NCBI GenBank assembly: GCA_036386675.1
Contig: DASVVE010000016.1
Coordinates: 122,561 to 186,560 of the forward strand
Length of the DNA stretch: 64,000 bases
Source: Chloroflexia bacterium
GTDB taxonomy: Bacteria > Chloroflexota > Chloroflexia > QHBQ01 > JADMIH01
Reading direction: 5' to 3'
In this document: piece after piece, positions 1,535 through 61,623 of the stretch
How the letters are laid out: every line of letters begins with the position of its first letter
Numbering within the stretch: position 1 is the first letter of the stretch
Program-made: the position numbers and the translations under genes
The notes under the pieces: model-generated
The model's input: the letters and a program-made list of their open reading frames with translations, nothing else
Told to the model about the DNA's origin: nothing
Databases searched by the model: none

Positions 1535-1978
1535 ATGGCAACTCAAAATATGACCCTGGACAGGCAGACATACTCAATAGCGGATATATTCAAGGCGGCT
1601 CTGGTGGCGGTGGCGGCCGGTTCGGTGGCAAACATAGTGTTGTGGCTGCTGGCGGTTGGGGTGGGGCTGGTGCCCGGCGACTTCTGGGTGTTGCAGCCGG
1701 TCTCAATCATCACCTCGACGCTGGCATTCACTTTGGTTGGTGCGGTCGTGCTAGCGGTGCTGACACGGGTCAGCCGCAACCCGATGCGCACCTGGCGGGT
1801 AGTAGCGGTAGTGGGGCTGGTCCTATCCTTCTCCAAACCCTTCATGCTTCTCACAGGCAGCATGAAGGGCTTCCCGGTGCCTACCGCCTCGACTGTGGCG
1901 GTCATGCTCCTCATGCACACGATAGCGGGGATTTCGGCTATCTACTTCATGACCACCATGCCGAAGCCACGAAGCTAG
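1535..1978 (+). CDS. Small integral membrane protein (~147 aa, 4 predicted TM), unknown function
   Basis: ATG at 1535 preceded by aaggagaac. Hydrophobic segments ALVAVAAGSVANIVLWLLAVGVGLV and AFTLVGAVVLAVL. Shares the reading frame with the spurious longer ORF 1004-1978. Confidence 0.5.
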   Translation: MATQNMTLDRQTYSIADIFKAALVAVAAGSVANIVLWLLAVGVGLVPGDFWVLQPVSIITSTLAFTLVGAVVLAVLTRVSRNPMRTWRVVAVVGLVLSFSKPFMLLTGSMKGFPVPTASTVAVMLLMHTIAGISAIYFMTTMPKPRS

Positions 1979-2313
1979 GTCTTGGGGTCGTAACACCACA
2001 CAGATACGAAGCTGGCGAATTGCACCGCAGAGACGCAGAGAGCCTGCCCTGAGCGTAGCCGAAGCGCCGCGGAGATTACGCAGAGGAGAATTGTGGGGGT
2101 TCTTTGTAAGGGCAGCATCGTGCAGTACGATGCTGCCCTCGTTCACATCCAAACAACCCCCATCTCAGCGTACCCTTTGCGCTCTCTGCGTCTCTGCGGT
2201 GAATAATCTATTCCAGTGTGTCCATGCCAACCTATTAGATTTGCTGACACGTGTTGGCCCAGCATGTATAATAGGGCGGCATGCAGGGTACGTACTAATG
2301 GAGGCTTGAACCC

Positions 2314-2829
2314 TTGGACGTCGCTTCAGTTGTGATACGTGAAGCCCGCATCTCAGACGCCGCCGGGTGCATCACTTTCTTGCGCGAGATTACTTCCGAG
2401 CCTGACATCATGATCCCCGGCTACCCTGACGATTGGGACTTTCCGGTGCAGGATGAAGAGGCTTTTATCCAGGACATGGTGGCTACGCCCAATTGCCTGA
2501 TGCTGGTCGTGGAAGCCGAGGGGAGGATAATGGGCATCCTGACCTGTCACGGCGGCAAGCGGCGCGCTATGCAACATGCAGTGATGCTGGGTGTCTCGCT
2601 ACACAAGGACTACCGCGACCGTGGACTGGGCCACCAATTGATGCAACGAGCCATAGATTGGGCCAGGGCTACCGGCATCACACGTATCGAGCTATTTGTC
2701 TATGTAGAAAACGCAAAGGGCATCCACCTGTATGAGAAGTTCGGCTTCAAGATCGAGGGCCGCCGCACCCGCGCCTACTACCACCATGGCAGGTATATAG
2801 ACGACCTAATTATGGCGCTGTTGCTTTAG
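2314..2829 (+). CDS. GNAT-family N-acetyltransferase
   Basis: 171 aa with acetyl-CoA binding-like motifs (HQLMQRAIDWARATGITRIELFV...NAKGIHLYEKFGF). TTG start; an alternative GTG lies ~18 nt downstream. Confidence 0.75.
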   Translation: MDVASVVIREARISDAAGCITFLREITSEPDIMIPGYPDDWDFPVQDEEAFIQDMVATPNCLMLVVEAEGRIMGILTCHGGKRRAMQHAVMLGVSLHKDYRDRGLGHQLMQRAIDWARATGITRIELFVYVENAKGIHLYEKFGFKIEGRRTRAYYHHGRYIDDLIMALLL

Positions 2830-2978
2830 ACGATGGACGATAGACGATGGACTATGGCAGACGAAAACGCAAAGACGCAAAGAACTCAAAGGACGCGCAA
2901 AGTAGATTACTGTTGGGAAGGGTGCTGACCTCTACTCAGTCCTCAGTCCTGTCGTCCATCGTCCATCGTCCATCGTCC
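2829..2978. repeat. Modular palindromic tandem-repeat element (copy E1): [GACGATrGAC]n-[ACGCAAAG]n-conserved core-[CAGTCCT]n-[GTCCATCGTC]n
   Basis: gacgatggacgatagacgatggac...cgcaaagacgcaaag...tagattactgttgggaagggtgctgacctctactcagtcctcagtcct...gtcgtccatcgtccatcgtccatcgtcc. Lies between the GNAT stop and the plsX RBS. Confidence 0.85.
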
Positions 2979-2996
2979 CCAAAGGAGACTTACTAG

Positions 2997-3998
2997 ATGA
3001 GAATTGCCCTGGATGCAATGGGGGGCGACCACGCCCCGCTTGAGACAGTGAAGGGAGCCATCGAGGCGGCGCGGGAGTACGGCATCGAGGTGGTGCTGGT
3101 GGGGCAGGAGGCTGCTATCCAGGCTGAGCTTGCTAAGGGCGGTACGTCGGGTCTCAAGCTCACGATTGAGCCTGCCGCCTCCGTCATCCCGATGGACGAG
3201 CACCAGCCCTCTACGGCGTGGCGGCGGCAGCGCGATTCGTCCCTCACCGTCGGCTTGCAGTTGCTGGCCGACCGCAAGGTGGACGCGTTCGTGTCGGCGG
3301 GCAACACCGGCGCTGTGGTGTCAGGTGGGACGTTCGTGCTGCGGCGCATCGAGGGCATAGACCGCCCTGCATTGGGGGTGCCGTTCCCCGCGATGGGTAA
3401 CATAGGCAAAATATTCCTCGTAGACGTGGGGGCCACACCTGACGCCAAGGCTCACTACCTGCTACAGTGGGCGCGTCTCGCTTCAATCTACATGGAGCGC
3501 GTGTACGACGTGAAGAACCCGCGCGTGGGCCTTGTATCTAACGGTGAGGAGGAGATCAAAGGCTCGGAGCTGGTGCGCGAGACGTTTCCGCTGTTGCAGA
3601 ATAGCGGCCTCAACTTCGTGGGCAATGTGGAGGGCAAGGACGTGCCCAACGGCGTGGCCGACGTGGTGGTGACCGATGGCTTCACCGGCAACGTGCTCCT
3701 TAAGACCACTGAGGGTGTCGCCAAGATGATCTTCGACCTGCTCCGCGCCGAACTGACTTCCAGCATGGTGAGCAAGCTGTTCGCCGCCGCCCTGCGCCCC
3801 AACTTCCGCCGTATAGCCGCCCGCCTGGACTACGCTGAATATGGCGGCTCAATAGTGATGGGTGTGGACGGTCTGCTCATCAAGCCGCACGGCCGCTCCA
3901 ACGCCAAGGCGATCAAGAACGCCATCCGGGTAGCCAAGAGCGGGGTCGAGCAGGATGTGATGAGCATCTTCCGCCAGGTGGGGGCGGCTGGACAATAG
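2997..3998 (+). CDS. plsX: Phosphate acyltransferase PlsX
   Basis: MRIALDAMGGDHAP... N-terminus and PlsX-typical GNTGA and FTGNV regions. RBS aaaggagac upstream. Confidence 0.9.
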   Translation: MRIALDAMGGDHAPLETVKGAIEAAREYGIEVVLVGQEAAIQAELAKGGTSGLKLTIEPAASVIPMDEHQPSTAWRRQRDSSLTVGLQLLADRKVDAFVSAGNTGAVVSGGTFVLRRIEGIDRPALGVPFPAMGNIGKIFLVDVGATPDAKAHYLLQWARLASIYMERVYDVKNPRVGLVSNGEEEIKGSELVRETFPLLQNSGLNFVGNVEGKDVPNGVADVVVTDGFTGNVLLKTTEGVAKMIFDLLRAELTSSMVSKLFAAALRPNFRRIAARLDYAEYGGSIVMGVDGLLIKPHGRSNAKAIKNAIRVAKSGVEQDVMSIFRQVGAAGQ

Positions 3999-4194
3999 AC
4001 GATGGACGATGGACGATAGTAGGAGAGACGGAACCGCCAAGACGCCAAGGACGCCAAGGACGCCAAGAACCCGCCAAGGTTTAGAATTGTTGTTGCGAAG
4101 AGTGCTAACAGCTACTCAGTCCTCCTCACTCCTCACTCCTCACTCCTCACTCCTATCGTCCATCGTCCATCGTCCATCGTCCATCGTCCATCGT
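3999..4194. repeat. Modular palindromic tandem-repeat element (copy E2), same family as E1
   Basis: (gacgatggac)x3 - (gacgccaagg)x4 - tttagaattgttgttgcgaagagtgctaacagctactcagtcctc - (ctcactcct)x4 - (atcgtccatc)x4. Sits between convergent plsX and the methyltransferase gene. Confidence 0.85.
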
Positions 4195-4201
4195 CTGCCC
4201 T

Positions 4202-5044
4202 CTATCGTTCTCGCCGCACAACGGCGATGATGTGCGTGCCTCCGTCTAGCGCGCCCGGCTCCTTGCAGTAGTCTAGCTCCCATGCGAGGAGAGTCTGCCA
4301 TAGTTGGGGATCGGACCTGGCCTGTTGCGCGGTCTCTTTGTTGTGGAGTGACAGGTAGTTGGAGGCCGAGGCGGCTACTATCTCACAGTGGTGCGCCCGC
4401 AGCAAGGCTTCTAGCTCGGACCACCTGAACATGTGGCAATAGTGCCCACCCGCGATCTCGCCGTAGAGGTCCCCGGTGCTATTTACGCGATTCGCAGCCT
4501 CTAGCCCGAATTCCTCGGTTGCTTTGAACACGCCTGCTAAGAAGGCGTTTGTAGAGCCTATCATCGACATCACGCTGAGCAGCACGTAACCGCCTGGTTT
4601 GGTGACCCGCAACAGTTCCTCCAACGCCTGTCCCGCCCTATCGAACACGTAGCTGAGCGCGCCGCCATAGCAGACCGCCGCGTCAAATGTGCCGTCGGCT
4701 ATGGCTGACAGGTCGGTGACGTCCATCACCTGCCGGGCGACCACGGAGCCTTCAAGCCCTGCTTCCTCCAGCCTCCGGCGGTTCATCTCAAGCTGCACGG
4801 GCGATATATCCCCGACCGTTACGCGAGCACCTATCCCGGCCATCTCGATTGTGAAACGTCCGGGTCCTGCACCAACGTCGAGGACATGGTCGCCGGGCTG
4901 TATGAAGCGGCGCAGGTAGTGCGTGTGCAGGTGCAGGTTGACGAGGTTGGCAGCACCCGCCTCCTGCTCGAAGCGCTGCCACTCACGCTCGCCGTAGTTG
5001 TCGTAGAAGCGGCTGATGTAGTTGGGGTCGTACTTCTTGGTCAT
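4202..5044 (-). CDS. Class I SAM-dependent methyltransferase
   Basis: Motif I VLDVGAGPGRFT and a Rossmann-fold MTase pattern. 280 aa. Confidence 0.75.
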   Translation of the reverse strand: MTKKYDPNYISRFYDNYGEREWQRFEQEAGAANLVNLHLHTHYLRRFIQPGDHVLDVGAGPGRFTIEMAGIGARVTVGDISPVQLEMNRRRLEEAGLEGSVVARQVMDVTDLSAIADGTFDAAVCYGGALSYVFDRAGQALEELLRVTKPGGYVLLSVMSMIGSTNAFLAGVFKATEEFGLEAANRVNSTGDLYGEIAGGHYCHMFRWSELEALLRAHHCEIVAASASNYLSLHNKETAQQARSDPQLWQTLLAWELDYCKEPGALDGGTHIIAVVRRER

Positions 5045-5054
5045 GTGGTTTGAG

Positions 5055-5453
5055 TTATTGGGCTTGCGCCCTGGAGGGCATGCGGTGGGTGGAGGCGGCT
5101 TCTAGCAGGTGGCGCACGGCTGGGCGGGTGAGGTCTTCAGGCGTCGTTATCTTCAGGTGTCGGAACAGCTTGCCGGTGCCTTGCAAAAGTCCGTCGGGGT
5201 CGGGTAGCTCGCTCCCGTAGTTGAAGCCGAGGTCTATGTGGTTCTTGTGCACGCTGATGTAGCAGAAGTGCTCGGTCATCTTCTTCGGCCCCACGCCGTA
5301 GCCCGCGATCCGCTGGCGGGGCCAGGGCACCTCAACGATGTCCGGCATTACGTCTCTGATCAACTCCCTCGCTTGCAACGCAAGGTCTCGCACCTTCGGG
5401 GTGGCAGAGGCCAGGATTTCGTTGAAGCCCTCATCGGGTGATGCGTAGCTCAT
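5055..5453 (-). CDS. DUF1801 (YdhG-like) domain protein
   Basis: 132 aa with overall similarity to DUF1801 proteins. This is a family-level guess. Confidence 0.45.
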   Translation of the reverse strand: MSYASPDEGFNEILASATPKVRDLALQARELIRDVMPDIVEVPWPRQRIAGYGVGPKKMTEHFCYISVHKNHIDLGFNYGSELPDPDGLLQGTGKLFRHLKITTPEDLTRPAVRHLLEAASTHRMPSRAQAQ

Positions 5454-5576
5454 GTTTGTTTCCTCCTTAGCCCACGTTTGGCATGAACTTGTGTCCCATT
5501 ATAGGGGCTACTTGCCACTAACGACTACGAAATGCTACCTGCACCCAGTAAAGTAGGGAGCCTGAACTACAGGCAC

Positions 5577-5742
5577 CACACTCCCCCGTGTCATCCTGAG
5601 CGCAGCGAAGGATCTCAAATGCTCCTCTTGTCGTTGCGGTGAACCCACAGCACCCTACCTTTTTTGCTCAAAGTTCAACAGCCTCCCTACTCAGCTTCTT
5701 GAGATCCTTCGCTGCGCTCAGGATGACACGGGGGAGTGTGGT
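5577..5742. repeat. MITE-like palindrome: 43-bp perfect terminal inverted repeats (ccacactcccccgtgtcatcctgagcgcagcgaaggatctcaa) around an ~80-bp spacer
   Basis: The left arm 5577-5619 is the exact reverse complement of the right arm 5700-5742. Located immediately upstream of the wecB-like gene. Confidence 0.85.
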
Positions 5743-5850
5743 CCCACTGGTCCCGCTTTGACACAGCCGTGGCTATCACCTGTGCTGCTTTGCCTGCATC
5801 GCTTCCGGGGTGTTATAATAGCCGTTGGCTCTCGAGGAGCCTGCTCAACC

Positions 5851-6912
5851 ATGAAGATACTCTCTGTTGTAGGCGCACGGCCGCAATTTATCAAGGCTGC
5901 TCCCGTGAGCCGGGCTATGTCGAGGGCAGGCGTCGAAGAAGTGCTCTTGCATACGGGGCAACACTACGACCCCGCGATGTCCGAGGTCTTTTTCGCGGAG
6001 CTGGACATTCCCGCGCCACGGCACAACCTGGGGGTAGGTTCTGGCTCGCACGCGGGCCAGACCGCTGCTATGCTTGTGGGCATCGAGCAGGTGCTGCTGG
6101 AAGAACGGCCCGATTACCTGCTGATATACGGCGACACCAACTCCACGCTGGCCGGGGCGCTGTCGGCAGCCAAGCTGGGCGTGCCGGTGGCCCACATCGA
6201 GGCGGGGTTGCGCTCCTACAACCGCGCTATGCCGGAGGAGATCAACCGCGTGGTGGCCGACAGCCTATCCAGCCTGCTCTTCTGCCCGACGGCTGCAGCT
6301 TCGGCCAATCTGCAACGCGAAGGCATCACGGGCGGTGTGTTCGTGATCGGTGACGTGATGTACGACGCCATACTCGACTCTCTGCCACGTGCCGAGGACA
6401 TGGCGTCCTCGCTCCTGTCGCGGATTGGAGTGGAGAGCGGTGGGTACTTGCTGGCGACGGTGCACCGGGCGTCCAACACCGACGACCCACGCAACCTGGC
6501 TAACATAGTAGGGGCGCTGAGCGACTCCGGCATGCCTGTGGTCTTCCCGGTACACCCACGCACCCGGAGGGCGCTGGAACAGGCGGGCGTCGTCCCCGGC
6601 GAAAACGTGCGGCAGGTGGAGCCGGTGTCCTACCTTGAGATGGTGGCGCTGGAAAAGCACGCCCGCAAGATACTCACCGACTCGGGAGGCGTGCAAAAGG
6701 AGGCGATGTGGCTGGCGGTGCCCTGCATCACCATGCGCGACGAGACCGAATGGGTGGAAACGGTGGAGCTGGGTTGGAATACCCTCACCGGCACCGACCC
6801 CGCCCGCATACGAGCCGCCATACAAGCCCCGCGTATCCATTCCACCCCACCCGACGTGTATGGTGATGGACACGCGGCAGAGAATATCGTGAATGTGATA
6901 TGTAACACGTAA
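5851..6912 (+). CDS. UDP-N-acetylglucosamine 2-epimerase (non-hydrolysing), WecB/MnaA family
   Basis: MKILSVVGARPQFIKAAPV...HTGQHYD...GDTNSTLAGALSAAKLGVPVAHIEAGLRS. The ORF-track start at 5758 is upstream of the true ATG at 5851. Confidence 0.85.
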   Translation: MKILSVVGARPQFIKAAPVSRAMSRAGVEEVLLHTGQHYDPAMSEVFFAELDIPAPRHNLGVGSGSHAGQTAAMLVGIEQVLLEERPDYLLIYGDTNSTLAGALSAAKLGVPVAHIEAGLRSYNRAMPEEINRVVADSLSSLLFCPTAAASANLQREGITGGVFVIGDVMYDAILDSLPRAEDMASSLLSRIGVESGGYLLATVHRASNTDDPRNLANIVGALSDSGMPVVFPVHPRTRRALEQAGVVPGENVRQVEPVSYLEMVALEKHARKILTDSGGVQKEAMWLAVPCITMRDETEWVETVELGWNTLTGTDPARIRAAIQAPRIHSTPPDVYGDGHAAENIVNVICNT

Positions 6913-6965
6913 CGCGTAACAGACGGGTGCCATTTACGACTTACGAGTTACGTGTTACGAGTCAC
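6901..6965. repeat. Short palindromic element built of CGTAAC/GTTACG repeats, overlapping the last codons of wecB
   Basis: tgtaacacgtaacgcgtaac...ttacgagttacgtgttacgagtcac. The wecB stop taa (6910-6912) lies inside the left arm. Confidence 0.7.
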
Positions 6966-6983
6966 CAAGGAAGGAAACAAGCC

Positions 6984-8063
6984 ATGATTAACATAGCCCG
7001 GCCCATGATAGGGGAGGAGGAGAAGGCGGCGGTGCTTGCCGTGCTCGAGTCGGGGCAACTCGCCCAGGGGGGCGTAGTGGCCGAGTTCGAGCGGGCCTTT
7101 GCCGACTATTGCGGCGTCAAGCACGCGATTGCCACGAGCAACGGCACTACCGCCCTGCACGTGGCCCTTCTCGCCCATGACATAGGGCCGGGAGATGAAG
7201 TAATTACGGTGCCGTTCACCTTCATCGCCTCGGCTAACTCCGTGCTCTACACCGGGGCGAAGCCTGTGTTCGTAGACATTGAGCCGGACAGCTTCAACAT
7301 CGACGTGGACCAGGTTGAGGCGGCGATTACCCCTCGCACGAAGGCCATCATGCCGGTGCATTTGTACGGTAATATAGCCGAGATGTCGCGCCTTATGGAG
7401 ATAGCAGAGCGGCACGGCCTTGTCGTGATCGAAGATGCCGCCCAGGCGCATGGGGCCGAAGATGGTGGAAAGCGGGCCGGTAGCTGGGGCACGGGCTGCT
7501 TTTCTTTCTACCCGACTAAGAACATCACCACCGGCGAGGGTGGGATGATTACCACCGACGACGACTGCGTAGCCGACAAGGCCCGGCTGGTGCGCGGACA
7601 TGGCATGCGCGTGCGCTACTACCACGAGATGCTGGGCTTCAACTTCCGCATGACCAACATCCACGCCGCGATAGGCATGGCACAACTCCCCAAGCTCGAA
7701 GGCTTCAACGCTCGCCGCATCGAGAACGCCGCGTATTTGAGCGAGCACCTGCCTTCCGACAAGGTGCGCGTGCCCACGGTCCGGCCCGGCACGCGCCACG
7801 TCTTCCACCAGTACACGGTGCGCATACTTCCACCGCTGGACAGGGACGACGCCCGCAAGCAGCTTGCCGAGTCGGGAGTGGGCAGCGAAATCTACTACCC
7901 CGTGCCCGTCCACCGGCAGCAGTTCTACACGGAGCAGGGCGACTGGGGGAGTTTCCCTGTGTCGGAGCAGGCCTCTCAGGAGGTGCTGTCGCTCCCGATC
8001 CACCCAGGCCTCAGCCGCCAGGACCTTGAGACTATTGTAGATGCCGTGCGGGGCCTGGGCTAA
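6984..8063 (+). CDS. DegT/DnrJ/EryC1/StrS-family PLP-dependent sugar aminotransferase (WbpE/PglE-like)
   Basis: MINIARPMIGEEEKAAVLAVLESGQLAQGG...ATSNGTTALH. RBS aaggaagg. The ORF-track start at 6927 is not the real start. Confidence 0.85.
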   Translation: MINIARPMIGEEEKAAVLAVLESGQLAQGGVVAEFERAFADYCGVKHAIATSNGTTALHVALLAHDIGPGDEVITVPFTFIASANSVLYTGAKPVFVDIEPDSFNIDVDQVEAAITPRTKAIMPVHLYGNIAEMSRLMEIAERHGLVVIEDAAQAHGAEDGGKRAGSWGTGCFSFYPTKNITTGEGGMITTDDDCVADKARLVRGHGMRVRYYHEMLGFNFRMTNIHAAIGMAQLPKLEGFNARRIENAAYLSEHLPSDKVRVPTVRPGTRHVFHQYTVRILPPLDRDDARKQLAESGVGSEIYYPVPVHRQQFYTEQGDWGSFPVSEQASQEVLSLPIHPGLSRQDLETIVDAVRGLG

Positions 8064-21178: not shown

Positions 21179-21250
21179 TGGACGGACGATAGACGATAGA
21201 CGATAGACGATGGCTTGTTTCCTATCGTCCGCCGTCCATCGTCTATCGTC
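21179..21250. repeat. Minimal GACGATAGAC/GTCTATCGTC hairpin element inside the oppD-oppF intergenic gap
   Basis: ggacggacgatagacgatagacgatagacgatgg-cttgttt-cctatcgtccgccgtccatcgtctatcgtcc. Confidence 0.75.
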
Positions 21251-21251
21251 C

Positions 21252-22439: not shown

Positions 22440-22853
22440 AATCCGCCCGGTGCTGTGACGTGTCGCGCGCCTACTGTCGTGTTACGCGACCCATGCCCCG
22501 CGGTTCCAGTCCCTTACATGATATGTTGCTCAACTATTACTATGCTTGCGCTATGTTTCCGGCTCCAGCAGACTCACATGCGAAAATCTGAAGCCATGCC
22601 GAAGTAAAGGGGATTTACATGGCAGTAAAGTCAATCAACCGGACAGGGTATCGCTGCTCTCTAGTTCGCTTTCCTGGTTCCTTGGTTGGCTTGCTAAGGG
22701 GATCCGCTTCTCGTGTGTTGACCGCGCACACTACGGCAAAAAGCGTGCCCCCAGTGTAGCAAATGTGCGCACAGGTGTCAACTGCGACATCAAATGTGAC
22801 AGTCACCTGCGTTCCTAATGCAATACACAACGGCGTGCCTGGAAAGGTTCAAA

Positions 22854-23018
22854 GGGACGAGGGACGATAGGAGACGGAAACGCCAAGACGCTAAGACGCC
22901 AAGTACCACGCCAAGGTTAAAGATTGTTTTTAGTTGGGTGCTGACCTGTACCCAGTCCTCAGTCCTCAGTCCTCAGTCCTCAGTCCTCAGTCCTCATCAC
23001 TCCTATCGTCCATCGTCC
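22854..23018. repeat. Modular palindromic tandem-repeat element (copy E4) with a conserved core
   Basis: gggacgagggacgatagg...(acgccaaga-like)x4...ttaaagattgtttttagttgggtgctgacctgtacccagtcctc(agtcctc)x5...atcgtccatcgtcc. Confidence 0.8.
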
Positions 23019-23020
23019 AC

Positions 23021-24277
23021 TCAAGCCAGTTCCAACAGTGACCCTGTGAAGAGACCCGCGCCTGCTTGTACGGGGGGTACGTGCATGACTTTGCCCCTGG
23101 CGAAATAGGGGAAATCAGGCCACTCGGCTGGCTCTCCGGCGTTCTTGCCGGGTACTGGGAAGAGGCGGGCGGTGAGGGGCTTGTCCAGCTTGACGGCCAG
23201 CGCGGCCATGTCGGTGATGATGCGTTCGAGTTGCGGCAGGGTCACGTCGCCGGGTAGGGGCACCGTGTCGAGGCCGAGGCCGCACACGGCGGACATGAGG
23301 AGCAGGGTGTCTATGGTCACCAGCCCTTCGGCGGCGCGGTCGGCCAGCGTCTGGTCTTCGAGGGCGGGCAGCATGAGGCCGGAGTAGCCGACGGTGGGTA
23401 GCTGCTCGCGGGCCTGCTTGAGGACGCTTGTGAAGAAGGCAGCGGCGGTCAGGGTGCCGGGGCTACCCAGCGGTGCGCCACTCAGCAGCTCCAGCGCGTA
23501 GCCTATGCTCCTACTCTGCTCCGGGAAGGGGGCCATCGAAATGTCGAGGCCGGTGAAAGTGTAGCCATGCTCGGCAGCCAGGCCCACGCACACGTCGGCG
23601 GCCTTCCCGGCTTCCTCTTCCAGCAGGCCGAGCAGCCTTAGTCTCGCCTCTTCCAGCGAGCCTGCTCCCTCGAATGCCCGCACGGCCAGGTCCGCCGCTT
23701 CAAGGGCCAGGCCGAACTCGGGTCGCCCGCCGTTGCGGTCGTCCTCCTTGTAGTAGGCGGCGGGGAAGAAAGGGACGTGGGGAGGGCAGTTGCAGGCCGC
23801 CGCGAAGCGCAGGTTGCCGAAACCCTCAGGGGTGCGCTCGGCCAGCGCCTGTGTGATGTGGGCGGAGGCCCTCACGGCCTCAAGGTTGACTACGCCGCCG
23901 CTCCCGGTGCGCGTCCCCACCTGTATGCTGGCGAAGGCGTTACCCGCCGCGAGCAGTAGCTCCGGGACCAACTCGAAGAACGGCTCTGACCCATTCTGGG
24001 GCGTGGTCGCCTGGAGCGTACCCATCGAGAAGTAGTCTATACCGGCCTCAGCGCACGCACTCCCCAGGTCCGCGACTTTGTCCGGCGCTGCATCGTCAGG
24101 CAGGAGCCACTCTTCCAGGGGCTGCGCTGCCAGGCGGGTGGTCTGCACGGTGAAGCCCTGGGCCTCCAGCGCCTGCCTGCCCGCCGTAGCGAACGACCCC
24201 AACCTCGTGGCAAGCTCAAGCCGCTCTGCGTCCTCGGTGGAAAGCGCCGCCCCGGTCGTAAGCGAGCGGATGTTCAC
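23021..24277 (-). CDS. Conserved hypothetical protein (possibly DUF711/UPF0210-like)
   Basis: 418 aa, soluble, no confident motif. The family assignment is from memory only. Confidence 0.35.
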   Translation of the reverse strand: MNIRSLTTGAALSTEDAERLELATRLGSFATAGRQALEAQGFTVQTTRLAAQPLEEWLLPDDAAPDKVADLGSACAEAGIDYFSMGTLQATTPQNGSEPFFELVPELLLAAGNAFASIQVGTRTGSGGVVNLEAVRASAHITQALAERTPEGFGNLRFAAACNCPPHVPFFPAAYYKEDDRNGGRPEFGLALEAADLAVRAFEGAGSLEEARLRLLGLLEEEAGKAADVCVGLAAEHGYTFTGLDISMAPFPEQSRSIGYALELLSGAPLGSPGTLTAAAFFTSVLKQAREQLPTVGYSGLMLPALEDQTLADRAAEGLVTIDTLLLMSAVCGLGLDTVPLPGDVTLPQLERIITDMAALAVKLDKPLTARLFPVPGKNAGEPAEWPDFPYFARGKVMHVPPVQAGAGLFTGSLLELA

Positions 24278-28343: not shown

Positions 28344-28380
28344 CTAACCCTCTCTCCTCACAAACTGGTGTAGCTAAACA

Positions 28381-28441
28381 TTGCAACCAGCCTACAGGAC
28401 TCTGAGTTGTTTCTCAAGTCAGAGTCCTGTAGGCTGGTTGC
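28381..28441. terminator. 24-bp perfect inverted repeat hairpin downstream of the lipoprotein gene
   Basis: tgcaaccagcctacaggactctga-gttgtttctcaag-tcagagtcctgtaggctggttgca. Confidence 0.45.
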
Positions 28442-28526
28442 ACTGGGTGTCCGTCCCGAATTGTGGAGCAAAGCTAGACCGATACCACGTGGGGAGCGAG
28501 TAGGCTGTTACGTGCTAGAGATCCAA

Positions 28527-34865: not shown

Positions 34866-35766
34866 AGAGCGCCTTTCAAAACCTGGCCCGTGACTTGCGG
34901 TGGTAGTGGGCACTATGAGCAAGCCACTAGTACCAGACGAACTATGGGAGATTGTAGAGCCACTGTTGCCAGCTGAGCCACCTAAGCCAAAGGGAGGTCG
35001 TCCTCGCGGGCCGGGCCGAGCAGCCCTTGCAGGGCTCATCTTCGTGCTGCGAAGGGGCCTACCCTGGGAGATGCTACCCCAAGAGATGGGCTGTGGGAGT
35101 GGAGTAACCTGCTGGCGCAGATTGCGTGAGTGGCAGAAGAAGGGAGTGTGGCGCAAGCTGCACAGGGCGTTGCTCAACCGCCTGGGAGAAGCAGACAAGA
35201 TAGATTGGTCACGCGCCAGCCTGGACTCAGATACTGTTCCAGCTAAGGGTGTAAAAAGGGGGACCCGAAAGCTACGGCTGTTGGGCCGAACCCCACAGAT
35301 AAGGGCAACACCCAGAGGGTGCCCGGCACGAAGCGCCATGTTGTGGTCGAGCGGCAAGGCATACCGCTGGCCGTGAAACTCACCGGTGCCAACACCCACG
35401 ACTCGAAGGTGTTCGAGGAGATGGTGGACAGCATAGAACCTATCAAACGTCCACTCGGCAAGCCTGGCCGACCTCGCAAGCGCCCGGACAAGTTGCACGC
35501 TGACAAGGCGTATGACATATCCAGGTGCCGCAAGGCTCTTGCGAAGAGGGGCATCAAGTGTCGCATAGCGCGTAAAGGAGTAGAGAGCAGCCAGAAGCTG
35601 GACAGGCACAGGTGGGTGGTTGAGCGCACCCTCTCCTGGCTCGACCGTAAACGTCGGCTCACCATCCGCTACGAGCGTCGTGACGATATTCACCTGGCGT
35701 TCCTGCATCTTGGTTGTGTCCTCATCTGCCTCAATCACCTGTTATGATGGTTTTGAAGGGCGCTCT
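34866..35766 (+). mobile_element. IS5-family (IS427-group-like) insertion sequence, ~900 bp, with 18-bp imperfect terminal IRs
   Basis: IRL agagcgcctttcaaaacc (34866-34883) matches IRR ggttttgaagggcgctct (35749-35766) with one mismatch. Encloses orfA/orfB. Confidence 0.85.
34900..35747 (+). CDS. IS5/IS427-type transposase orfAB, produced by a -1 programmed frameshift at A AAA AGG (35253-35259)
   Basis: orfA 34900-35376 (frame 1) and orfB 35319-35747 (frame 3). The -1 fusion reads ...GVKKGDPKATAVGPNPTDKGNTQRVPGTKRHVVVERQGIPLAVKLTGANTHDS, the typical IS5 DDE transposase context. Confidence 0.8.
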
Positions 35767-36884: not shown

Positions 36885-37022
36885 CCGCAAAGGCTCAAAG
36901 AGCGCAAAGATAACACGGAGAACAATAGAGTGTTCCAACGAGAGGAGCAGGGTACGTGCTGTCGTACCCTGCTCCTCATTGAACTCTCCGAACCTTAATT
37001 TACCCGGCCTGGTCCTTTGCGG
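36885..37022. repeat. Palindromic element with CGCAAAG repeats and a central hairpin gagcagggtacgtgctgtcgtaccctgctc
   Basis: ccgcaaaggctcaaagagcgcaaag ... gaggagcagggtacgtgctgtcgtaccctgctcctc ... cctttgcgg. Lies between ogg and tdk. Confidence 0.7.
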
Positions 37023-37891: not shown

Positions 37892-38013
37892 AAGGACGAT
37901 AGAGGAGTGGTTAGTGGTTAGTGGTTAGTGGTTAGTTATTATCCGACCATCCTAATCTTTGCGCGTCCTTTGCGCTCTTTGCCTCTTTGCGTTTTCGTCT
38001 CCTACCATCGTCC
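37892..38013. repeat. Modular tandem-repeat element (copy E5), inverted orientation of the E1 family
   Basis: The reverse complement contains gacgatgg...acgaaaacgcaaagaggcaaagagcgcaaaggacgcgcaaag (near-identical to the E1 segment) followed by (actaacc)x4. Confidence 0.8.
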
Positions 38014-38428: not shown

Positions 38429-38529
38429 TTAATTACGAATTACTAATTACGAATTACCAATTGTTTGTTACGAACCACGAATTACCACTTCCGAAATACC
38501 TGAGTAATTCGTAATTAGTAATTCGTAAC
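38429..38529. repeat. Palindromic element of TAATTACGAAT tandem repeats between rpmA and rpmE
   Basis: aattacgaattactaattacgaattaccaatt ... gagtaattcgtaattagtaattcgtaa. Confidence 0.75.
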
Positions 38530-38533
38530 TCGG

Positions 38534-38830: not shown

Positions 38831-38847
38831 TGCTTTCTCCCTTCGGG

Positions 38848-38934
38848 AGAGTGGATAGTGGATAGTGGATAGTGGTTAGAAGCTCTTTGCTAACCACTAT
38901 CCACTATCCACTATCCACTATCCACTATCCACTC
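38848..38934. repeat. Palindromic element of GTGGATA tandem repeats between rplU and rpmA
   Basis: gagagtggatagtggatagtggatagtggttag-aagctctttg-ctaaccactatccactatccactatccactatccactcc. Confidence 0.75.
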
Positions 38935-47017: not shown

Positions 47018-49075
47018 TTACCAATCGCGAGCGTCGTTGCGGTACTTCCACTCATGTGGAAACGGTCCTGACCGGGAAGGGGCAACCGGACCTGCTGGGG
47101 CCGCTGAGGTCTGGAATAATGGTTGGGTTACAGGTCCAGGTATCACCGGGGAGATAGAAGAACCTGTAGTGAGGCTAACGGGTAACGTAGCAGTAGGGCT
47201 GGGGACCAGTACGGGAGTGAAGGTAGGGGGCGGAGTAGGGGGTAGAGTCGGGGGTAAAGTAGGAGGTAGCGTAGCAGTAGGGCTGAGAACCAGCACAGGA
47301 GTGAAGGTAGGAGGCACAATAGGAACTGGAGTATCAGTGTAAGTAGCAGTAGCAACGGGAACCGAAGTAGGATCAAGGTCTGGAGTTGGAGCAATAATGT
47401 AAGTAGTTGCGGTGGCGGTGGAGCCAAGAACCAGGGTAGCACTAGGCTTGGGAATCGACGTAGGATCAAGGTCTGGAGGTGGGCCCGTGGTGGAGGTAGA
47501 CGTGGGAGTATTCTGGGGCGTGTCCGCGTCGGTGAGTGTATCGGGAAAGACCAGCCAGTGGTCGGCGTGGAACCATCTGGCCGAGGGATTTTCAGCGGGG
47601 TTTAGCTCGGCGCTACCCGACGAGGCGTACAGCACGTATATCCGCCGCACCGCCAGGTTCGGGTAGATCATCAGCCCTCCCTCGAAGTAAGCTACCAGAC
47701 CGCCGGTCTCCGTGCCTGGGGTATTCGTCTGTACGTCCGCGGGTGCGGTAGCCCAGCCTAGGCTTTCGCGCAGGTTCTGTTCGATCCAGACTTTGAGGAA
47801 AGTGCCGGTGGGTGGATAGAGGCCAGGCGGCACGTCCTTGGGCGACTCGGGTATATTGGTGGGGTCTACGTCGTTGAATGTCAGGACGCGCCCGTTATCG
47901 AACAACACATAGATGTCCTCGCGATCAGACATCCCGAATGTGTGAATACCTGCTTCATCGACGGTACCGCCCGCAGCACGTGCCGTTACGCTCACCATCT
48001 CACCACGCTGGTAGATCTGGCGCGTCACGGTGGCAGCCTTCTCCCGCTCGCGCATACACTTCAGGCGGACCCTTACGAACTCGTGATCCTGATATATGGG
48101 AGAGAATTTTCGCCCTGGGGTGCCGGACTGGCATGGCTTTAGAAGCACTTCGGGCTTGCCCGCGCCCTTGTAACGCCAATCGAGATAGTGCAGGCCCACG
48201 TTGCCCATCTGCACCTTGAAACCCTCTGGGGCGTCGGGTACGTAGGTGAGCACCCGCCGCTCGTATGCCTGCACCATGACGGGCGTCTGCTTACCCTCTA
48301 TCATCACCTTGGTCCAGTAGGCTTCACTTACCGGATAGCCCGTTACGTAGAAGTACGGCACGCTGAGTTGCGCGGTCGTCTTCTGGTCGTTCTCCATAAC
48401 GGGTCCCTGGGCGTTGAGGAAGTCAAAGAACACAGTGGGGATGTTGTGTTTGGTGGCAGGCTCGTAGTACGCATATGTAACACCAAACTCCCTGGCACGC
48501 TGTACATAAAACTGGGCTCTCGCGGAGTCGGGGTAGCCGTCGTCGGCAAGCCTTTGGACGACTTGCTTGCCTACGGCCTGCTGCGCGTCCTGCTCTATCA
48601 CGTAACCCAGGCTTGCGTACTTAACCGTTCCTGAGGCACCTGGCGAGTCGCCCGCCACCGGGATTTCGGCTGGGTAGCGAAAAGTGAACTTGCTGTTCCC
48701 GGTCTGCATGTTGCCGCTAACAAGCTCCCTGGTGAGCAGGCCGTTGGTGACGTAGAAGGGGCTGTTCTTGTCACCCGCGGGGTTGTTGATCTCCATGCGG
48801 CTCTTATCGAAATACTGCACGAGATGCTTACCCTGCGGCCCCTCTGCATAGTCCTCAAGTACCTGCCCTGTGTTAGGTTGCGGACCCCAGTACCAGCTTC
48901 GCTTTACTGCCCCATTCGCGACAAACGAATCGGTGCGGGTCCACACTCGCTCGAAGGCGGGGTCCGCGAACCTGCCTTCCTGATTAGCATGCACGGCCGA
49001 GCTACCGGGCGTGACACTAAGCAGGGGCAGTACAAGCAACAAGCTGATACAGACGAGAAGCTGTCGAGTCTTCAT
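47018..49075 (-). CDS. Secreted protein of unknown function (paralog 2) with a ~180-aa Pro/Thr-rich C-terminal extension
   Basis: Roughly two-thirds identical to paralog 1 over ~500 aa by eye, then ...PTLPPTLPPTPPPTFTPVLV... low-complexity repeats. Confidence 0.6.
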   Translation of the reverse strand: MKTRQLLVCISLLLVLPLLSVTPGSSAVHANQEGRFADPAFERVWTRTDSFVANGAVKRSWYWGPQPNTGQVLEDYAEGPQGKHLVQYFDKSRMEINNPAGDKNSPFYVTNGLLTRELVSGNMQTGNSKFTFRYPAEIPVAGDSPGASGTVKYASLGYVIEQDAQQAVGKQVVQRLADDGYPDSARAQFYVQRAREFGVTYAYYEPATKHNIPTVFFDFLNAQGPVMENDQKTTAQLSVPYFYVTGYPVSEAYWTKVMIEGKQTPVMVQAYERRVLTYVPDAPEGFKVQMGNVGLHYLDWRYKGAGKPEVLLKPCQSGTPGRKFSPIYQDHEFVRVRLKCMREREKAATVTRQIYQRGEMVSVTARAAGGTVDEAGIHTFGMSDREDIYVLFDNGRVLTFNDVDPTNIPESPKDVPPGLYPPTGTFLKVWIEQNLRESLGWATAPADVQTNTPGTETGGLVAYFEGGLMIYPNLAVRRIYVLYASSGSAELNPAENPSARWFHADHWLVFPDTLTDADTPQNTPTSTSTTGPPPDLDPTSIPKPSATLVLGSTATATTYIIAPTPDLDPTSVPVATATYTDTPVPIVPPTFTPVLVLSPTATLPPTLPPTLPPTPPPTFTPVLVPSPTATLPVSLTTGSSISPVIPGPVTQPLFQTSAAPAGPVAPSRSGPFPHEWKYRNDARDW

Positions 49076-52233: not shown

Positions 52234-52293
52234 GGACGATGGACGATGGACGATGGACGATGGGTAGAGGGAACAAACCCCTCTGCCCATCGT
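52234..52293. repeat. (GGACGATGGAC)x4 ... cccatcgtc hairpin element directly after the aceA stop
   Basis: gggacgatggacgatggacgatggacgatggg-tagagggaacaaacccctctg-cccatcgtc. Confidence 0.7.
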
Positions 52294-52344
52294 CTGTTGT
52301 AGTGGCTGGAGCAACATAGAGCACGGGAACCAGTCTTGCCCTTC

Positions 52345-52538
52345 TCATCTTGAGCGTAGCAAAGGATCAGTGGCTCGTGCTTGGTTGCGTAACAGTGGCG
52401 ACCAAAGCCTCGGCCTTGTCATTCTGAACGCAGTGAAGAATCTCGTCCTTCAGCACCCAAGTTTCACCTTTCCTACAGCAACAGAGTCCCATAAGAAAGC
52501 GGGAGCATACTGGTATGGGACGAGATTCTTCGCTACGC
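52345..52538. repeat. Diverged copies of the 5577-5742 palindrome family (arms gtcattctgaacgcagtgaagaatctcgtc / gacgagattcttcgctacgctcagaataac, plus a third partial arm tcatcttgagcgtagcaaaggatc)
   Basis: Arms at 52417-52446 and 52509-52538 are imperfect reverse complements and differ at ~5 positions from the gtcatcctgagcgcagcgaaggatctc arms at 5590. The partial arm is at 52345-52368. Confidence 0.6.
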
Positions 52539-52620
52539 TCAGAATAACAAAGGGGGTAAGGTTCCGCAGCTCGATAGTAGCGCAGCCGCGTTCTATCTTA
52601 GAGAGGGGCACCGCAGGGGA

Positions 52621-56865: not shown

Positions 56866-56937
56866 TTAACATCAGGGTCGAATATCCGATGCATGATACC
56901 CCAGGCAGGGGGAGTTGGCAAGACGCGCTTGATGTTT

Positions 56938-57093
56938 AAACGCCAAGACGCGGAGACGCCAAGGACGCGCCAAGTAAACTAAGGTTTAGAGAGTACAAGA
57001 GGACCAGGGTACAGTATGTCGTACCCTGGTCCTTTATCTTGAGCCACAATCCTACTATTGGCGTGGTCCTTGGCGTCTCCGCGTCTTGGCGTT
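56938..57093. repeat. Palindromic element: ~37-bp near-perfect IR arms of ACGCCAAG-type repeats around the central hairpin ggaccagggtacagtatgtcgtaccctggtcc
   Basis: aaacgccaagacgcggagacgccaaggacgcgccaag ... ggaccagggtacagtatgtcgtaccctggtcc ... ttggcgtggtccttggcgtctccgcgtcttggcgttt. Confidence 0.8.
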
Positions 57094-57102
57094 TAGACGT
57101 GG

Positions 57103-59328: not shown

Positions 59329-59346
59329 AACTCCTCCATGTCATAA

Positions 59347-59443
59347 GTGCCGAGTGCCGAGTGCCGAGTACCGAGTGCCGAGTACCGGGTACCGAGTGAT
59401 TGTTGCGTACCTACTTGGCGCTCGGTACTCGGTACTCGGTACT
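59347..59443. repeat. Palindromic element of GTGCCGAGT/GTACCGAGT repeats; its right arm encodes the last ~10 residues of the histidine kinase
   Basis: gtgccgagtgccgagtgccgagtaccgagtgccgagtaccgggtaccgagtg-attgttgcgtacctacttggcg-ctcggtactcggtactcggtac. The HK C-terminus STEYRVPSAK* is read from this arm. Confidence 0.75.
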
Positions 59444-61294: not shown

Positions 61295-61453
61295 TTATAT
61301 AGCGGCAGCCTATCCTTACTATAAAGCCGTATGCCTGCCCTGTCAATACGGCCAATGCCGCTAGAAAAAGCACAGCGGTGTGATCATTCTCCGGCAGGAG
61401 AGACACAGGAAAGTGTGGCATGTAACAAGTGGCATAGTAGCAGGCGGCATGGC

Positions 61454-61623
61454 GGCATGGTAGACGCCCGTCGATTGAAATCGAGGGCTACACATTGCGA
61501 AGTCTGCCCTGCGGCAGACTGGTTCACCTTGAGCATCTGTAAAGACCTAATGAAATGTTTCAGTCCCGCAGGGACTTTGCAAAGTGTAGCCCTCGATTTC
61601 AATCGACGGGCGTCTACCATGCC
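61454..61623. repeat. MITE-like palindrome: 39-bp perfect terminal inverted repeats (ggcatggtagacgcccgtcgattgaaatcgagggctaca) with an imperfectly palindromic interior, ~170 bp
   Basis: Left arm starts at 61454 and the right arm ends at 61623. Mirror-image ORFs 61331-61645(+) and 61384-61620(-) are artefacts of it. Confidence 0.85.

What the first reader, a model, noticed from the sequence alone, without database searches (positions are those of the whole stretch)
2829..4194. plsX is bracketed by two copies of a modular palindromic tandem-repeat element that share a ~40-nt conserved core
E1 (2829-2978) and E2 (3999-4194) have the same architecture. Outer arms are (GACGATGGAC)n / (GTCCATCGTC)n. 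Inner arrays are 8-10-mers (CGCAAAG/ACGCCAAGG on the left, CAGTCCT/CTCACTCCT on the right), and these are not complementary to each other. Between them lies a conserved core, T(T)AGAaTTGTTgttGcGAAGrGTGCTrACagCTACTCAGTCCTC. The outer arms can form a long stem. Core conservation with variable repeat numbers suggests either a mobile non-autonomous element or a functional RNA/protein-binding module. I do not recognise this as a described repeat family.
Basis: seen in the sequence. Interest (0 to 1): 0.8.

Follow-up and report, generated by a model that had tools for sequence, protein, structure and literature searches.

The report
Nested heptamer-repeat hairpins filling Chloroflexia gene gaps
The two repeats around plsX are real, but they are two copies among many of a fast-changing family of hairpin-forming repetitive DNA that fills gaps between genes in a group of Chloroflexia bacteria, and nothing ties them to plsX regulation.

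Summary
E1 (2829-2978) and E2 (3989-4196) share one architecture and a core that is 74% identical (shuffles 48±3%). The outer-arm unit is a heptamer (GGACGAT), not a 10-mer.

They are not specific to plsX. The window holds two more copies of this type (22853-23019; 37894-38013 on the minus strand), two bare (GGACGAT)n hairpins and at least seven other repeat-armed palindromes. Together they occupy about 13 of 38 intergenic gaps.

The same modules recur in several independent Chloroflexia MAGs: 66 symmetric palindromes and about 17 asymmetric copies like E1/E2.

Seven plsX loci from relatives (81-97% PlsX identity) all differ from the window. The E1 site carries a (GTAACAC)n hairpin, a (GAGTGAC)n hairpin with another nested repeat, or nothing. 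The E2 site carries another subfamily, one in opposite orientation, or nothing.

I found no Rfam family, no conserved interior fold, no promoter or terminator signature, no orientation bias (8 vs 5) and no G·U strand bias (19 vs 23).

Best reading: a lineage-specific, REP/BIME-like family of nested palindromic minisatellites with rapid turnover. Their effect is a large stem-loop running from the stop codon to the next Shine-Dalgarno site. How they spread is unknown. This is a new variant of a known kind, of moderate interest.

The parts
2829..2978 (+). E1, an asymmetric ('A-type') nested palindromic repeat between the GNAT gene (stop 2827-2829) and plsX (ATG 2997). Layout: left arm (GACGATG-type heptamers) 2829-2857; array AGACGAAAACGCAAAG... 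2859-2902; core 2903-2934; (CTCAGTC)2.3 2935-2950; right arm (ATCGTCC)4 2951-2978.
3989..4196 (+). E2, an A-type element between plsX (stop 3996-3998, inside the first heptamer units) and the convergent methyltransferase (stop 4202-4204). Layout: left arm 3989-4019; closing TAGGAG 4020-4025; (ACGCCAAGG)n array 4026-4079; core 4080-4121; (CTCCTCA)4.7 4122-4154; right arm (ATCGTCC)5.9 4155-4196.
22853..23019 (+). E3, a third A-type copy of the CAGTCCT subfamily with (CAGTCCT)6.3 at 22953-22996. It abuts the stop codon (23021-23023) of the minus-strand DUF711 gene, so it is antisense to the flanking genes.
37894..38013 (-). E4, a fourth A-type copy of the TAACCAC subfamily with a different core. 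It lies between rpmE (L31) and tdk and is co-oriented with them.
21184..21251 (.). Simple hairpin with the same (GGACGAT)n/(ATCGTCC)n arms and no cargo. It fills the gap between two ABC ATPase genes on the minus strand.
52234..52293 (.). (GGACGAT)4 array starting 1 nt after the stop of the isocitrate-lyase-like gene. It has a small inner hairpin and a short right arm.
56934..57098 (.). Symmetric palindrome in which both arms are the ACGCCAAG/ACGCGGAG array (33-nt arms, 97% complementary). It has a central GGACCAGGGTAC...GTACCCTGGTCC hairpin and lies between the MscS-like gene and enolase.
2023..2201 (.). Palindrome with (ACGCAGAG)n arms and a central hairpin. It is conserved at the orthologous site in L194, but the window copy carries an extra ~25-nt insert in its left arm.
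36886..36980 (.). CGCAAAG-type array followed by a GGAGCAGGGTAC...GTACCCTGCTCC hairpin, between tdk and ogg.
6895..6965 (.). (GTAACAC)n/(GTTACGT)n hairpin. The epimerase stop codon (6910-6912) lies in the second unit. Orthologous sites in L194, L196 and L198 carry different elements.
38431..38532 (.). (AATTACG)n hairpin filling the rpmA-rpmE gap.
38846..38934 (.). (GGATAGT)n/(ACTATCC)n hairpin with a 34-bp stem that is 97% complementary. It fills the rplU-rpmA gap.
59346..59443 (.). (AGTGCCG)n/(CGGTACT)n hairpin. Its right arm encodes the last codons of the histidine kinase gene (stop 59411-59413).
2244..2272 (+). Sigma-70-like promoter (CTGACA-17-TATAAT, 11 of 12 matches) upstream of the GNAT gene. 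It is the only promoter-like site upstream of plsX in the scan, so GNAT-plsX is probably one transcript running through E1. It is context, not part of the element.

Best explanation
E1 and E2 belong to one subfamily of a large, lineage-specific system of nested palindromic minisatellite repeats. These repeats colonise intergenic gaps in a clade of Chloroflexia.

Each E1/E2-type element has three layers:
- an outer stem made of inverted tandem heptamers (here GGACGAT/ATCGTCC), closed by TAGGAG/CTCCTA;
- a roughly 90-130-nt unstructured interior, made of an (ACGCMAAG)n array, which is the arm of another palindrome family;
- a 30-40-nt junction (the 'core') followed by an orphan heptamer array, which is the right arm of a third palindrome family.

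The elements are non-coding and non-autonomous repetitive DNA. They change in four ways: unit slippage, homogenisation between the two arms, nesting of one palindrome inside the loop of another, and copy or replacement events between sites.

For the host, the result is a very stable stem-loop in DNA and in the transcript. It typically starts at the stop codon of the upstream gene and ends just before the Shine-Dalgarno site of the next gene. Functionally this is REP/BIME-like: tolerated, perhaps mildly useful as an intercistronic or 3'-end hairpin. It is not a plsX-specific regulator.

Shown: multicopy status, modularity, distribution across genomes, turnover at orthologous sites, and the lack of any strand-specific signal.
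Inferred: the mechanisms of spread and of arm homogenisation, and any effect on mRNA.
For: Copies and modules:
- Four A-type copies and at least nine further repeat-armed palindromes lie in 64 kb. They occupy about 13 of 38 gaps and 1.6 kb of 9.5 kb intergenic DNA.
- The motif AGACGRAAMCGCMAAGA hits several independent Chloroflexia MAGs. There it forms 66 symmetric palindromes and about 17 A-type elements, with outer arms of different heptamers: GGACGAT, AATTACG, GAGTTAT.
- Complete (AGGACTG)n...(CAGTCCT)n palindromes exist, so the right inner array of E1-E3 is half of another palindrome.
- In 634 kb there are 202 period-7 arrays, and 102 have a complementary partner within 350 nt.

Turnover at orthologous sites:
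- GNAT-plsX gap: E1 in the window; a (GTAACAC)n hairpin in L194, L196 and L201; a (GAGTGAC)n hairpin with a nested copy of the window's 61453-61624 repeat in L202; overlapping genes in L198.
- plsX downstream: E2 in the window; the CGCAAAG/CAGTCCT version in L194; the TAACCAC subfamily in opposite orientation in L196; different arms in L199; nothing in L198, L200 and L202.
- E1 is as close to the L194 downstream element (89% identity, 20 gap columns) as the positional orthologue E2 is (87%, 72 gap columns).
- The arms change sequence between orthologous sites but stay complementary.

No strand-specific signal:
- Orientation is 8 co-oriented vs 5 anti-oriented.
- G·U-compatible stem mismatches are 19 on the sense strand vs 23 on the antisense strand.
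- No conserved interior fold and no Rfam family.

Literature:
- Heptamer satellites are scattered in Chloroflexus aurantiacus (PMC6749651).
- Heptameric intergenic SSRs are over-represented in bacteria and hypervariable between close relatives (PMC4692102).
Against: - No mobilising enzyme was identified. The window has only a split IS4/IS5-type DDE transposase and no Y1/HUH transposase.
- No target-site duplications are visible at E1 or E2.
- The persistence of complementary arms, and the precise fit between stop codon and Shine-Dalgarno site (44% of stop distances are 10 nt or less), could mean the hairpin is selected for a function rather than merely tolerated.
- The locus sample was chosen through the repeat motif, so context statistics are biased.
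- No expression data are available.
Confidence: 0.62

Rival explanations
1. The hairpins are selected RNA elements: intercistronic or 3'-end stem-loops. They would protect upstream mRNA from 3' exonucleases, act as RNase III processing sites, or modulate termination of translation or transcription. Under this reading the repeat nature is secondary.
For: - All 13 repeat-armed elements in the window lie 3' of a gene: 11 in co-directional gaps and 2 in convergent gaps.
- Many start 0-2 nt after, or inside, the stop codon and end a few nt before the Shine-Dalgarno site.
- Arms stay complementary while their sequence changes.
- Stems of 20-34 bp would be RNase III substrates (established knowledge).
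- From my own knowledge, E. coli REPs stabilise upstream mRNA and, when within about 15 nt of a stop codon, affect translation.
Against: - In the larger sample, 36 of 157 classified hairpins lie in divergent (promoter) gaps.
- There is no excess of G·U over A·C mismatches on the sense strand, 19 vs 23.
- No T-tract follows the stems.
- Close relatives lack any element at the same gaps (L198, L200, L202), so the hairpins are dispensable.
- This reading does not explain the unpaired modular interior.
Confidence: 0.15
2. These are purely local products of replication slippage and template switching at each gap. There is no movement between sites, and similar modules arise repeatedly.
For: - Unit copy number differs between the two arms and between orthologues.
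- Heptamer slippage has been proposed as a general property of bacterial polymerases (PMC4692102, citing Mrazek 2007).
- Site 6895-6965 carries related heptamers in relatives, ACGTAAC vs GAGTGAC.
Against: - A non-repetitive core of 30-40 nt and fixed junctions (GATAGGAGACGRAAMCGC and TCATCACTCCTATCGTCC) are shared at 85-89% identity by copies at unrelated sites and in different genomes.
- E1 replaced a different hairpin that is present in the three closest relatives.
Confidence: 0.08
3. The interior (the (ACGCMAAG)n array plus core) is a binding platform for a DNA- or RNA-binding protein, or an sRNA or cis-regulatory RNA module. The outer stem would present it.
For: - The left junction and array are strongly conserved (invariant columns).
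- The architecture of array, AT-rich core and heptamer array recurs with diverged sequence, for example in L199 and L200.
- A motif GGT(A/G)CT(A/G)(A/T)C recurs in cores.
Against: - No orientation preference relative to genes.
- No conserved fold and a positive covariation term.
- No Rfam hit.
- No promoter-like site in the cores, while genuine promoters in this genome are canonical.
- The same array also serves simply as both arms of 66 symmetric palindromes.
Confidence: 0.08
4. The elements are assembly artefacts, that is, chimeric joins at low-complexity repeats.
For: Short-read contigs do break inside these arrays. L195 ends in the left array, and many PlsX contigs are only 1-3 kb.
Against: - Sequences are identical in independent assemblies.
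- The same architecture appears in many projects and assemblers.
- Flanking genes are intact and syntenic.
Confidence: 0.01

Closest known systems
REP / BIME / REPIN elements (Enterobacteria, Pseudomonas; GTAG- and CGTC-tagged REPs, PMC3733652, PMC3116915)
   Same: - Extragenic, multicopy and palindromic.
- Often placed directly after stop codons and inside operons.
- Mosaic or clustered organisation (BIME).
- Form hairpins in transcripts.
- Persist vertically within a lineage.
   Different: - REP stems are 5-13 bp with 2-20-nt loops and an unpaired GTAG or CGTC tag. Here the stems are 19-34 bp, built from tandem heptamers whose sequence differs between copies, and loops reach 130 nt.
- No RAYT gene was found in the window.
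- There is no sequence similarity. The only Chloroflexi REPs reported in that survey are GTAG-23 in Thermomicrobium roseum.
Heptameric intergenic simple-sequence repeats: cyanobacterial STRR (Calothrix/Nostoc), Xanthomonas GGGAATC repeats (PMC4692102), Chloroflexus aurantiacus (GATAGRA)n satellites (PMC6749651)
   Same: - Tandem 7-nt units confined to intergenic DNA.
- Many dispersed arrays per genome.
- Extensive length and sequence variation between close relatives.
- Some arrays occur as inverted pairs.
- The last example is in the same bacterial class.
   Different: - Those reports describe single arrays. Inverted pairs are described as few in Nostoc, and an example is shown for Xanthomonas.
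- Here half of the arrays are paired into hairpins (102 of 202).
- Here several array families are nested with a shared non-repetitive core.
- The unit sequences are different.
BOX elements of Streptococcus pneumoniae (boxA-boxB(n)-boxC). Comparison from my own knowledge, not tested here.
   Same: - Modular intergenic repeat with a variable number of an internal module.
- Stable predicted secondary structure.
- Non-autonomous.
   Different: - The modules are 45-59 nt, not 7-9 nt.
- No nested palindromes.
- Unrelated sequence and phylum.
MITEs, and the small dispersed repeats of Nostoc that nest inside other repeats (Elhai 2008, from my own knowledge; cited in PMC3116915)
   Same: - Small non-autonomous repeats.
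- Nesting of one repeat inside the hairpin of another. Examples: the 61453-61624-type repeat inside a heptamer hairpin in L202, and a ~25-nt insert inside 2023-2201.
   Different: - No terminal inverted repeats matching a known IS.
- No target-site duplication seen at E1 or E2.
- The arms are tandem arrays of variable unit number.

Membership tests
REP/REPIN (GTAG or CGTC tagged) | Short imperfect palindrome with a 5-13-bp stem and a 2-20-nt loop | tested here: not met
   Stems are 19-34 bp and made of tandem heptamers. Loops are 10-130 nt. Criteria are taken from PMC3733652.
REP/REPIN (GTAG or CGTC tagged) | Unpaired GTAG or CGTC tetranucleotide tag at one end | tested here: not met
   CGTC occurs inside the paired unit ATCGTCC, not as an unpaired tag. 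Other copies use arms without it, such as AATTACG, GGATAGT and GTAACAC.
REP/REPIN (GTAG or CGTC tagged) | Associated RAYT (Y1 transposase) gene flanked by the repeats | tested here: inconclusive
   No Y1_Tnp hit among the window proteins scanned, nor in the JGI Pfam calls. However, 64 kb is a small part of the genome.
REP/REPIN (GTAG or CGTC tagged) | Multicopy and extragenic | tested here: met
MITE | Terminal inverted repeats related to an autonomous IS, plus a target-site duplication | tested here: not met
   No direct repeat flanks E1 (…TTTAG | … | CCAAAGG) or E2 (…CAATAG | … | CTGCCC). The only IS in the window is a split DDE_Tnp_1 gene at 34900-35747, with no evident relation to the elements. 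Its ends were not compared in detail.
Heptameric intergenic SSR / STRR-like repeats | Tandem arrays of a 7-nt unit, dispersed in intergenic DNA and variable between relatives | tested here: met
   TRF gives period 7 for the outer arms and right inner arrays. There are 202 arrays in 634 kb. Orthologous sites are variable.
Intrinsic (Rho-independent) terminator | GC-rich hairpin followed by a T-tract | tested here: not met
   The scan of 1900-7100 finds no terminator-like site at E1 or E2. The right arms are followed by CCAAAGGAG (E1) and GCCCTC (E2). A similar hairpin fills the gap between rplU and rpmA, which leaves no room for a promoter.
Any Rfam RNA family | Covariance-model score at or above the gathering threshold | tested here: not met
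   No hits at gathering threshold. At E<=1 there are only miRNA-precursor models far below threshold, matching the long hairpins.
CRISPR array | Direct repeats of 25-40 nt separated by unique spacers | tested here: not met
   Units are 7-9 nt, head to tail and without spacers.

The most novel reading that the evidence does not exclude
The nesting pattern reflects a dedicated mobilisation mechanism that is still undescribed and that targets hairpin apices or replaces whole hairpins.

The pattern in question:
- Cargo modules sit inside the loops of heptamer hairpins whose arm sequences are unrelated.
- A whole palindrome was swapped exactly between a stop codon and the Shine-Dalgarno site.
- Subfamilies 85-89% identical are shared across genomes.

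This would be a new class of miniature 'Russian-doll' mobile elements in Chloroflexia. The arms would be kept complementary by DNA-level arm-to-arm copying rather than by selection on RNA.
Probability: 0.2. Interest if true: 0.7.

Novelty: new variant of a known kind. Interest (0 to 1): 0.42.

Why it matters
- Practical: these elements fragment short-read assemblies of Chloroflexia. They move stop codons and create variable C-terminal tails (seen for PlsX and a histidine kinase). They could be mistaken for regulatory RNAs or small ORFs.
- Biological: they offer a dense natural system for asking how palindromic minisatellites arise, how their two arms stay complementary while the unit sequence changes, and how one repeat nests inside another.
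- Operons: they also raise the question of how operons, including rplU-rpmA, tolerate 20-34-bp perfect stems between cistrons.
- If a dedicated mobilisation mechanism exists, it would extend the REPIN/RAYT concept to a new phylum and a new architecture.

Tried and rejected
- Rfam at gathering and at permissive thresholds gave nothing but sub-threshold miRNA-hairpin noise.
- Core as a promoter: rejected. No sigma-70-like site lies in E1 or E2, while true promoters nearby are canonical.
- Terminator: no T-tract.
- Conserved interior RNA structure: RNAalifold on 7 copies gave -7 kcal/mol with an unfavourable covariation term. Only the closing stem is kept.
- Sense-strand RNA selection through G·U vs A·C mismatches: 19 vs 23, no signal.
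- Orientation rule for A-type elements: 8 vs 5, no signal.
- Exclusion from divergent gaps: true in the window (0 of 13) but not in the larger, biased sample (36 of 157).
- Synteny between window genes and the motif-selected loci: none found.
- L114 (78% PlsX identity) has a different upstream neighbour and no repeats, so it says little.
- DNA for the P0057 locus was unavailable. Its tail DDRRPTTDD looks like a translated heptamer array, but that is only an inference.
- A simple inversion of the interior between L194 and L196 was considered and rejected. The L196 interior is a different subfamily (TAACCAC), so this is replacement in the opposite orientation, not a flip.
- CsrA-type GGA sponge: the arrays mostly lack conserved GGA, so I did not pursue it.
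Full report
**1. What is there**

Reading 2400-4600 confirms the finding. Directly after the stop codon of a GNAT acetyltransferase gene (TAG 2827-2829) lies E1. Its parts are:
- a run of heptamers, GACGATG GACGATA GACGATG GACTATG;
- an 8-9-nt array, AGACGAAAACGCAAAG ACGCAAAG AACTCAAAG GACGCGCAAAG;
- a non-repetitive stretch of about 32 nt;
- (CTCAGTC)2.3;
- (ATCGTCC)4;
- then CCAAAGGAG and the plsX ATG at 2997.

E2 has the same layout, but it begins at 3989 rather than 3999. Its first degenerate heptamers encode the last plsX codons and its stop codon (3996-3998). It ends at 4196, six bases before the stop of a convergent methyltransferase gene.

Tandem Repeats Finder gives period 7 for the outer arms and the right inner arrays, and period about 9 for the left arrays.

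The heptamer array is far beyond chance, with 17 matches against 0.01 expected. The arms are 86-96% complementary.

As RNA, the outer stems dominate the fold: -62 kcal/mol for E1 and -80 kcal/mol for E2, with z-scores of -4.8 and -5.4. The interior is mostly unpaired, and the MFE structures have an ensemble frequency below 1%. The two cores are 74% identical, against 48±3% for shuffles.

**2. It is not about plsX**

The window contains two more elements of the same architecture:
- E3 at 22853-23019 on the plus strand, with a near-identical core and (CAGTCCT)6;
- E4 at 37894-38013 on the minus strand, with the same left module but a different core and (TAACCAC)4.

It also has two bare (GGACGAT)n hairpins (21184-21251, 52234-52293). 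There are hairpins with other heptamers in their arms (6895-6965, 38431-38532, 38846-38934, 59346-59443). There are palindromes whose two arms are the ACGC(C/A/G)(A/G)AG array itself (2023-2201, 56934-57098, and partly 36886-36980).

About 13 of 38 intergenic gaps of 30 nt or more carry one of these elements. That is 1.6 kb of 9.5 kb of intergenic DNA.

The flanking genes are ordinary housekeeping genes. Three different hairpins and E4 separate rplU, rpmA, rpmE and tdk.

**3. Source and relatives**

The window is part of a 255-kb contig from JGI metagenome 3300034760. The best PlsX homologues are labelled Chloroflexia or Chloroflexota MAGs.

One scan of species-representative genomes with the left-junction motif AGACGRAAMCGCMAAGA returned many loci from several independent Chloroflexia MAGs. 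The array-bearing matches there fall into two groups:
- 66 are symmetric palindromes with the array on both arms. These often have a further nested (ACGCAGAG)n layer and a central GGACCAGGGTAC...GTACCCTGGTCC hairpin.
- About 17 are asymmetric elements like E1/E2.

In the asymmetric group the outer stem can be a different heptamer (AATTACG in L092 and L035, GAGTTAT in L018). The right inner array is CAGTCCT, TAACCAC or AACTCA(Y).

Complete (AGGACTG)n...(CAGTCCT)n palindromes also exist (L043, L042). So the 'non-complementary' right array of E1-E3 is one arm of another palindrome family. The left array is likewise one arm of a second family.

Cores cluster by right-array type across genomes, not by genome. 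In 634 kb of this material there are 202 period-7 arrays of 18 nt or more. Of these, 102 have a complementary partner within 350 nt.

**4. Orthologous sites**

I retrieved seven plsX loci from relatives with 81-97% PlsX identity. An eighth locus (L114, 78%) has a different upstream neighbour and says little.

GNAT-plsX gap:
- the window has E1;
- L194 (97%), L201 (95%) and L196 (92%) have a simple (GTAACAC)n hairpin;
- L202 (94%) has a (GAGTGAC)4...(ACTCGTC)8 hairpin whose roughly 350-nt loop holds a copy of the 52-nt-arm inverted repeat seen at window 61453-61624;
- L198 (84%) has overlapping genes and no gap.

The window and L201 share the stop codon and the AAAGGAGAC Shine-Dalgarno region. 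Only the palindrome between them differs.

Downstream of plsX:
- L194 has the same type and orientation as E2, but in the CGCAAAG/CAGTCCT version;
- L196 has the same outer arms with a TAACCAC-subfamily interior in the opposite orientation;
- L199 has different outer arms, (GTGATGC)n;
- L201 has only (AATTACT)3;
- L198, L200 and L202 have nothing.

E1 aligns with the L194 downstream element at 89% identity with 20 gap columns. That is at least as good as the positional orthologue E2, at 87% with 72 gap columns.

At another gap (window 6895-6965) four genomes carry four different elements. The heptamer of both arms changes together, for example ACGTAAC/GTTACGT against GAGTGAC/GTCACTC.

PlsX C-terminal tails vary by 0-25 residues among 120 homologues. 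This is consistent with arrays supplying the stop codon.

Sequences of the related elements are identical in independent assemblies, which excludes an artefact.

**5. Tests of function**

- No Rfam family matches.
- RNAalifold on seven CAGTCCT-type interiors keeps only the closing TAGGAG/CTCCTA stem. The energy is -7 kcal/mol and the covariation term is unfavourable.
- The only promoter-like sites near plsX are canonical ones outside the elements (2244-2272 and 5790-5819). No terminator-like site coincides with E1 or E2. GNAT-plsX is therefore probably one transcript running through E1.
- A-type elements in co-directional gaps are co-oriented with the genes 8 times and anti-oriented 5 times.
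- For 179 hairpins, contexts are 80 co-directional, 41 convergent and 36 divergent. Stem mismatches that would be G·U on the sense strand number 19, against 23 on the antisense strand.
- 44% of stop-codon distances are 10 nt or less.
- These statistics come from loci selected through the repeat, so they are indicative only.

Nothing points to a strand-specific RNA role or to a gene-specific role.

**6. Interpretation**

The best-supported reading is a lineage-specific family of nested palindromic minisatellites. It behaves like REP/BIME or REPIN populations and like heptameric intergenic SSRs. The elements are non-coding, multicopy, modular and confined to gaps. They turn over quickly through slippage, arm homogenisation, nesting and copy or replacement between sites.

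The elements expand up to the functional boundaries, the stop codon and the Shine-Dalgarno site. The hairpins may be tolerated, or they may be mildly useful as intercistronic or 3'-end stem-loops. I cannot tell which without expression data.

The mechanism of spread is unknown. I found no RAYT-like gene and no target-site duplication.

**7. Comparison with the literature**

- Heptameric SSRs are known to be over-represented in bacterial intergenic DNA and to vary between close relatives (PMC4692102).
- Chloroflexus aurantiacus was noted to carry 22 scattered satellites derived from the heptamer (GATAGRA)n (PMC6749651).
- REPs have short stems with GTAG or CGTC tags. In that survey, the only Chloroflexi example was Thermomicrobium (PMC3733652).
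- My searches found no description of palindromic, nested, modular elements in Chloroflexia.

I therefore rate this a new variant of a known kind, of moderate interest. Its 'mobile non-autonomous element' alternative is the one the evidence favours.

Noticed in passing
window 5572-5745 and 52339-52553: Inverted pairs of a GTCATCCTGAGCGCAGCGAAGGATCTC-type motif with a spacer of about 80 nt. The first is absent from the orthologous gap in L194 and L196. The same motif is nested inside ACGCMAAG elements in several MAG loci (L006, L010, L041, L056, L058, L098, L102).
   Followed up: partly
window 61453-61624; L202 ~1270-1430: Inverted repeat with 52-nt arms (GACGCCCGTCGATTGAAATCGAGGGCTACAC...), 96% complementary. 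A second copy sits in the loop of a (GAGTGAC)n hairpin upstream of plsX in a relative. This is direct evidence that one repeat family nests inside another.
   Followed up: partly
window ~2044-2069 (inside 2023-2201): An insert of about 25 nt, CCTGCCCTGAGCGTAGCCGAAGCGCC, interrupts the left arm of the (ACGCAGAG)n palindrome. It is absent from the orthologous element in L194 (9115-9207). The same insert occurs in L067.
   Followed up: partly
window 39252-35893 (minus strand): rplU (L21), rpmA (L27), rpmE (L31), tdk and ogg are each separated by a different palindromic repeat that fills the whole gap. The rplU-rpmA gap leaves no room for a promoter, so a 34-bp perfect stem apparently sits inside a ribosomal-protein transcript.
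   Followed up: partly
window 59411-59443: The last ~10 codons and the stop of the histidine kinase gene (59411-61294, minus strand) are encoded by the right arm of hairpin 59346-59443. The stops of plsX (3996-3998) and of the epimerase (6910-6912) likewise lie inside repeat units. PlsX C-terminal tails vary by 0-25 aa among homologues.
   Followed up: partly
window 34900-35747: An IS4/IS5-type DDE transposase (Pfam PF01609) is split over two overlapping ORFs. No relation to the repeats was established.
   Followed up: no
window 47181-47353: An 84-nt tandem repeat (2.1 copies, 76% matches) lies inside a 685-aa ORF (47018-49075, minus strand) that has no Pfam match.
   Followed up: no
window 28379-28445: An isolated hairpin with 31-nt arms, 94% complementary, and a 5-nt loop. 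It lies between two minus-strand genes and is not built from tandem units.
   Followed up: no
L200 4560-4620 and 4740-4840: Upstream of plsX in an 81% relative there is an 11-nt tandem array (CATGCCCGGAC)n and a diverged A-type-like unit on the reverse strand: (CACCAAGAG)n, then an AT-rich core with TAGAATTG, then (TGGCGAC)n. The architecture seems older than the sequence family.
   Followed up: no
L195 (Logan contig) end; contig lengths: Short-read contigs carrying plsX often end inside the flanking repeat arrays. These repeats therefore fragment assemblies of this clade.
   Followed up: partly
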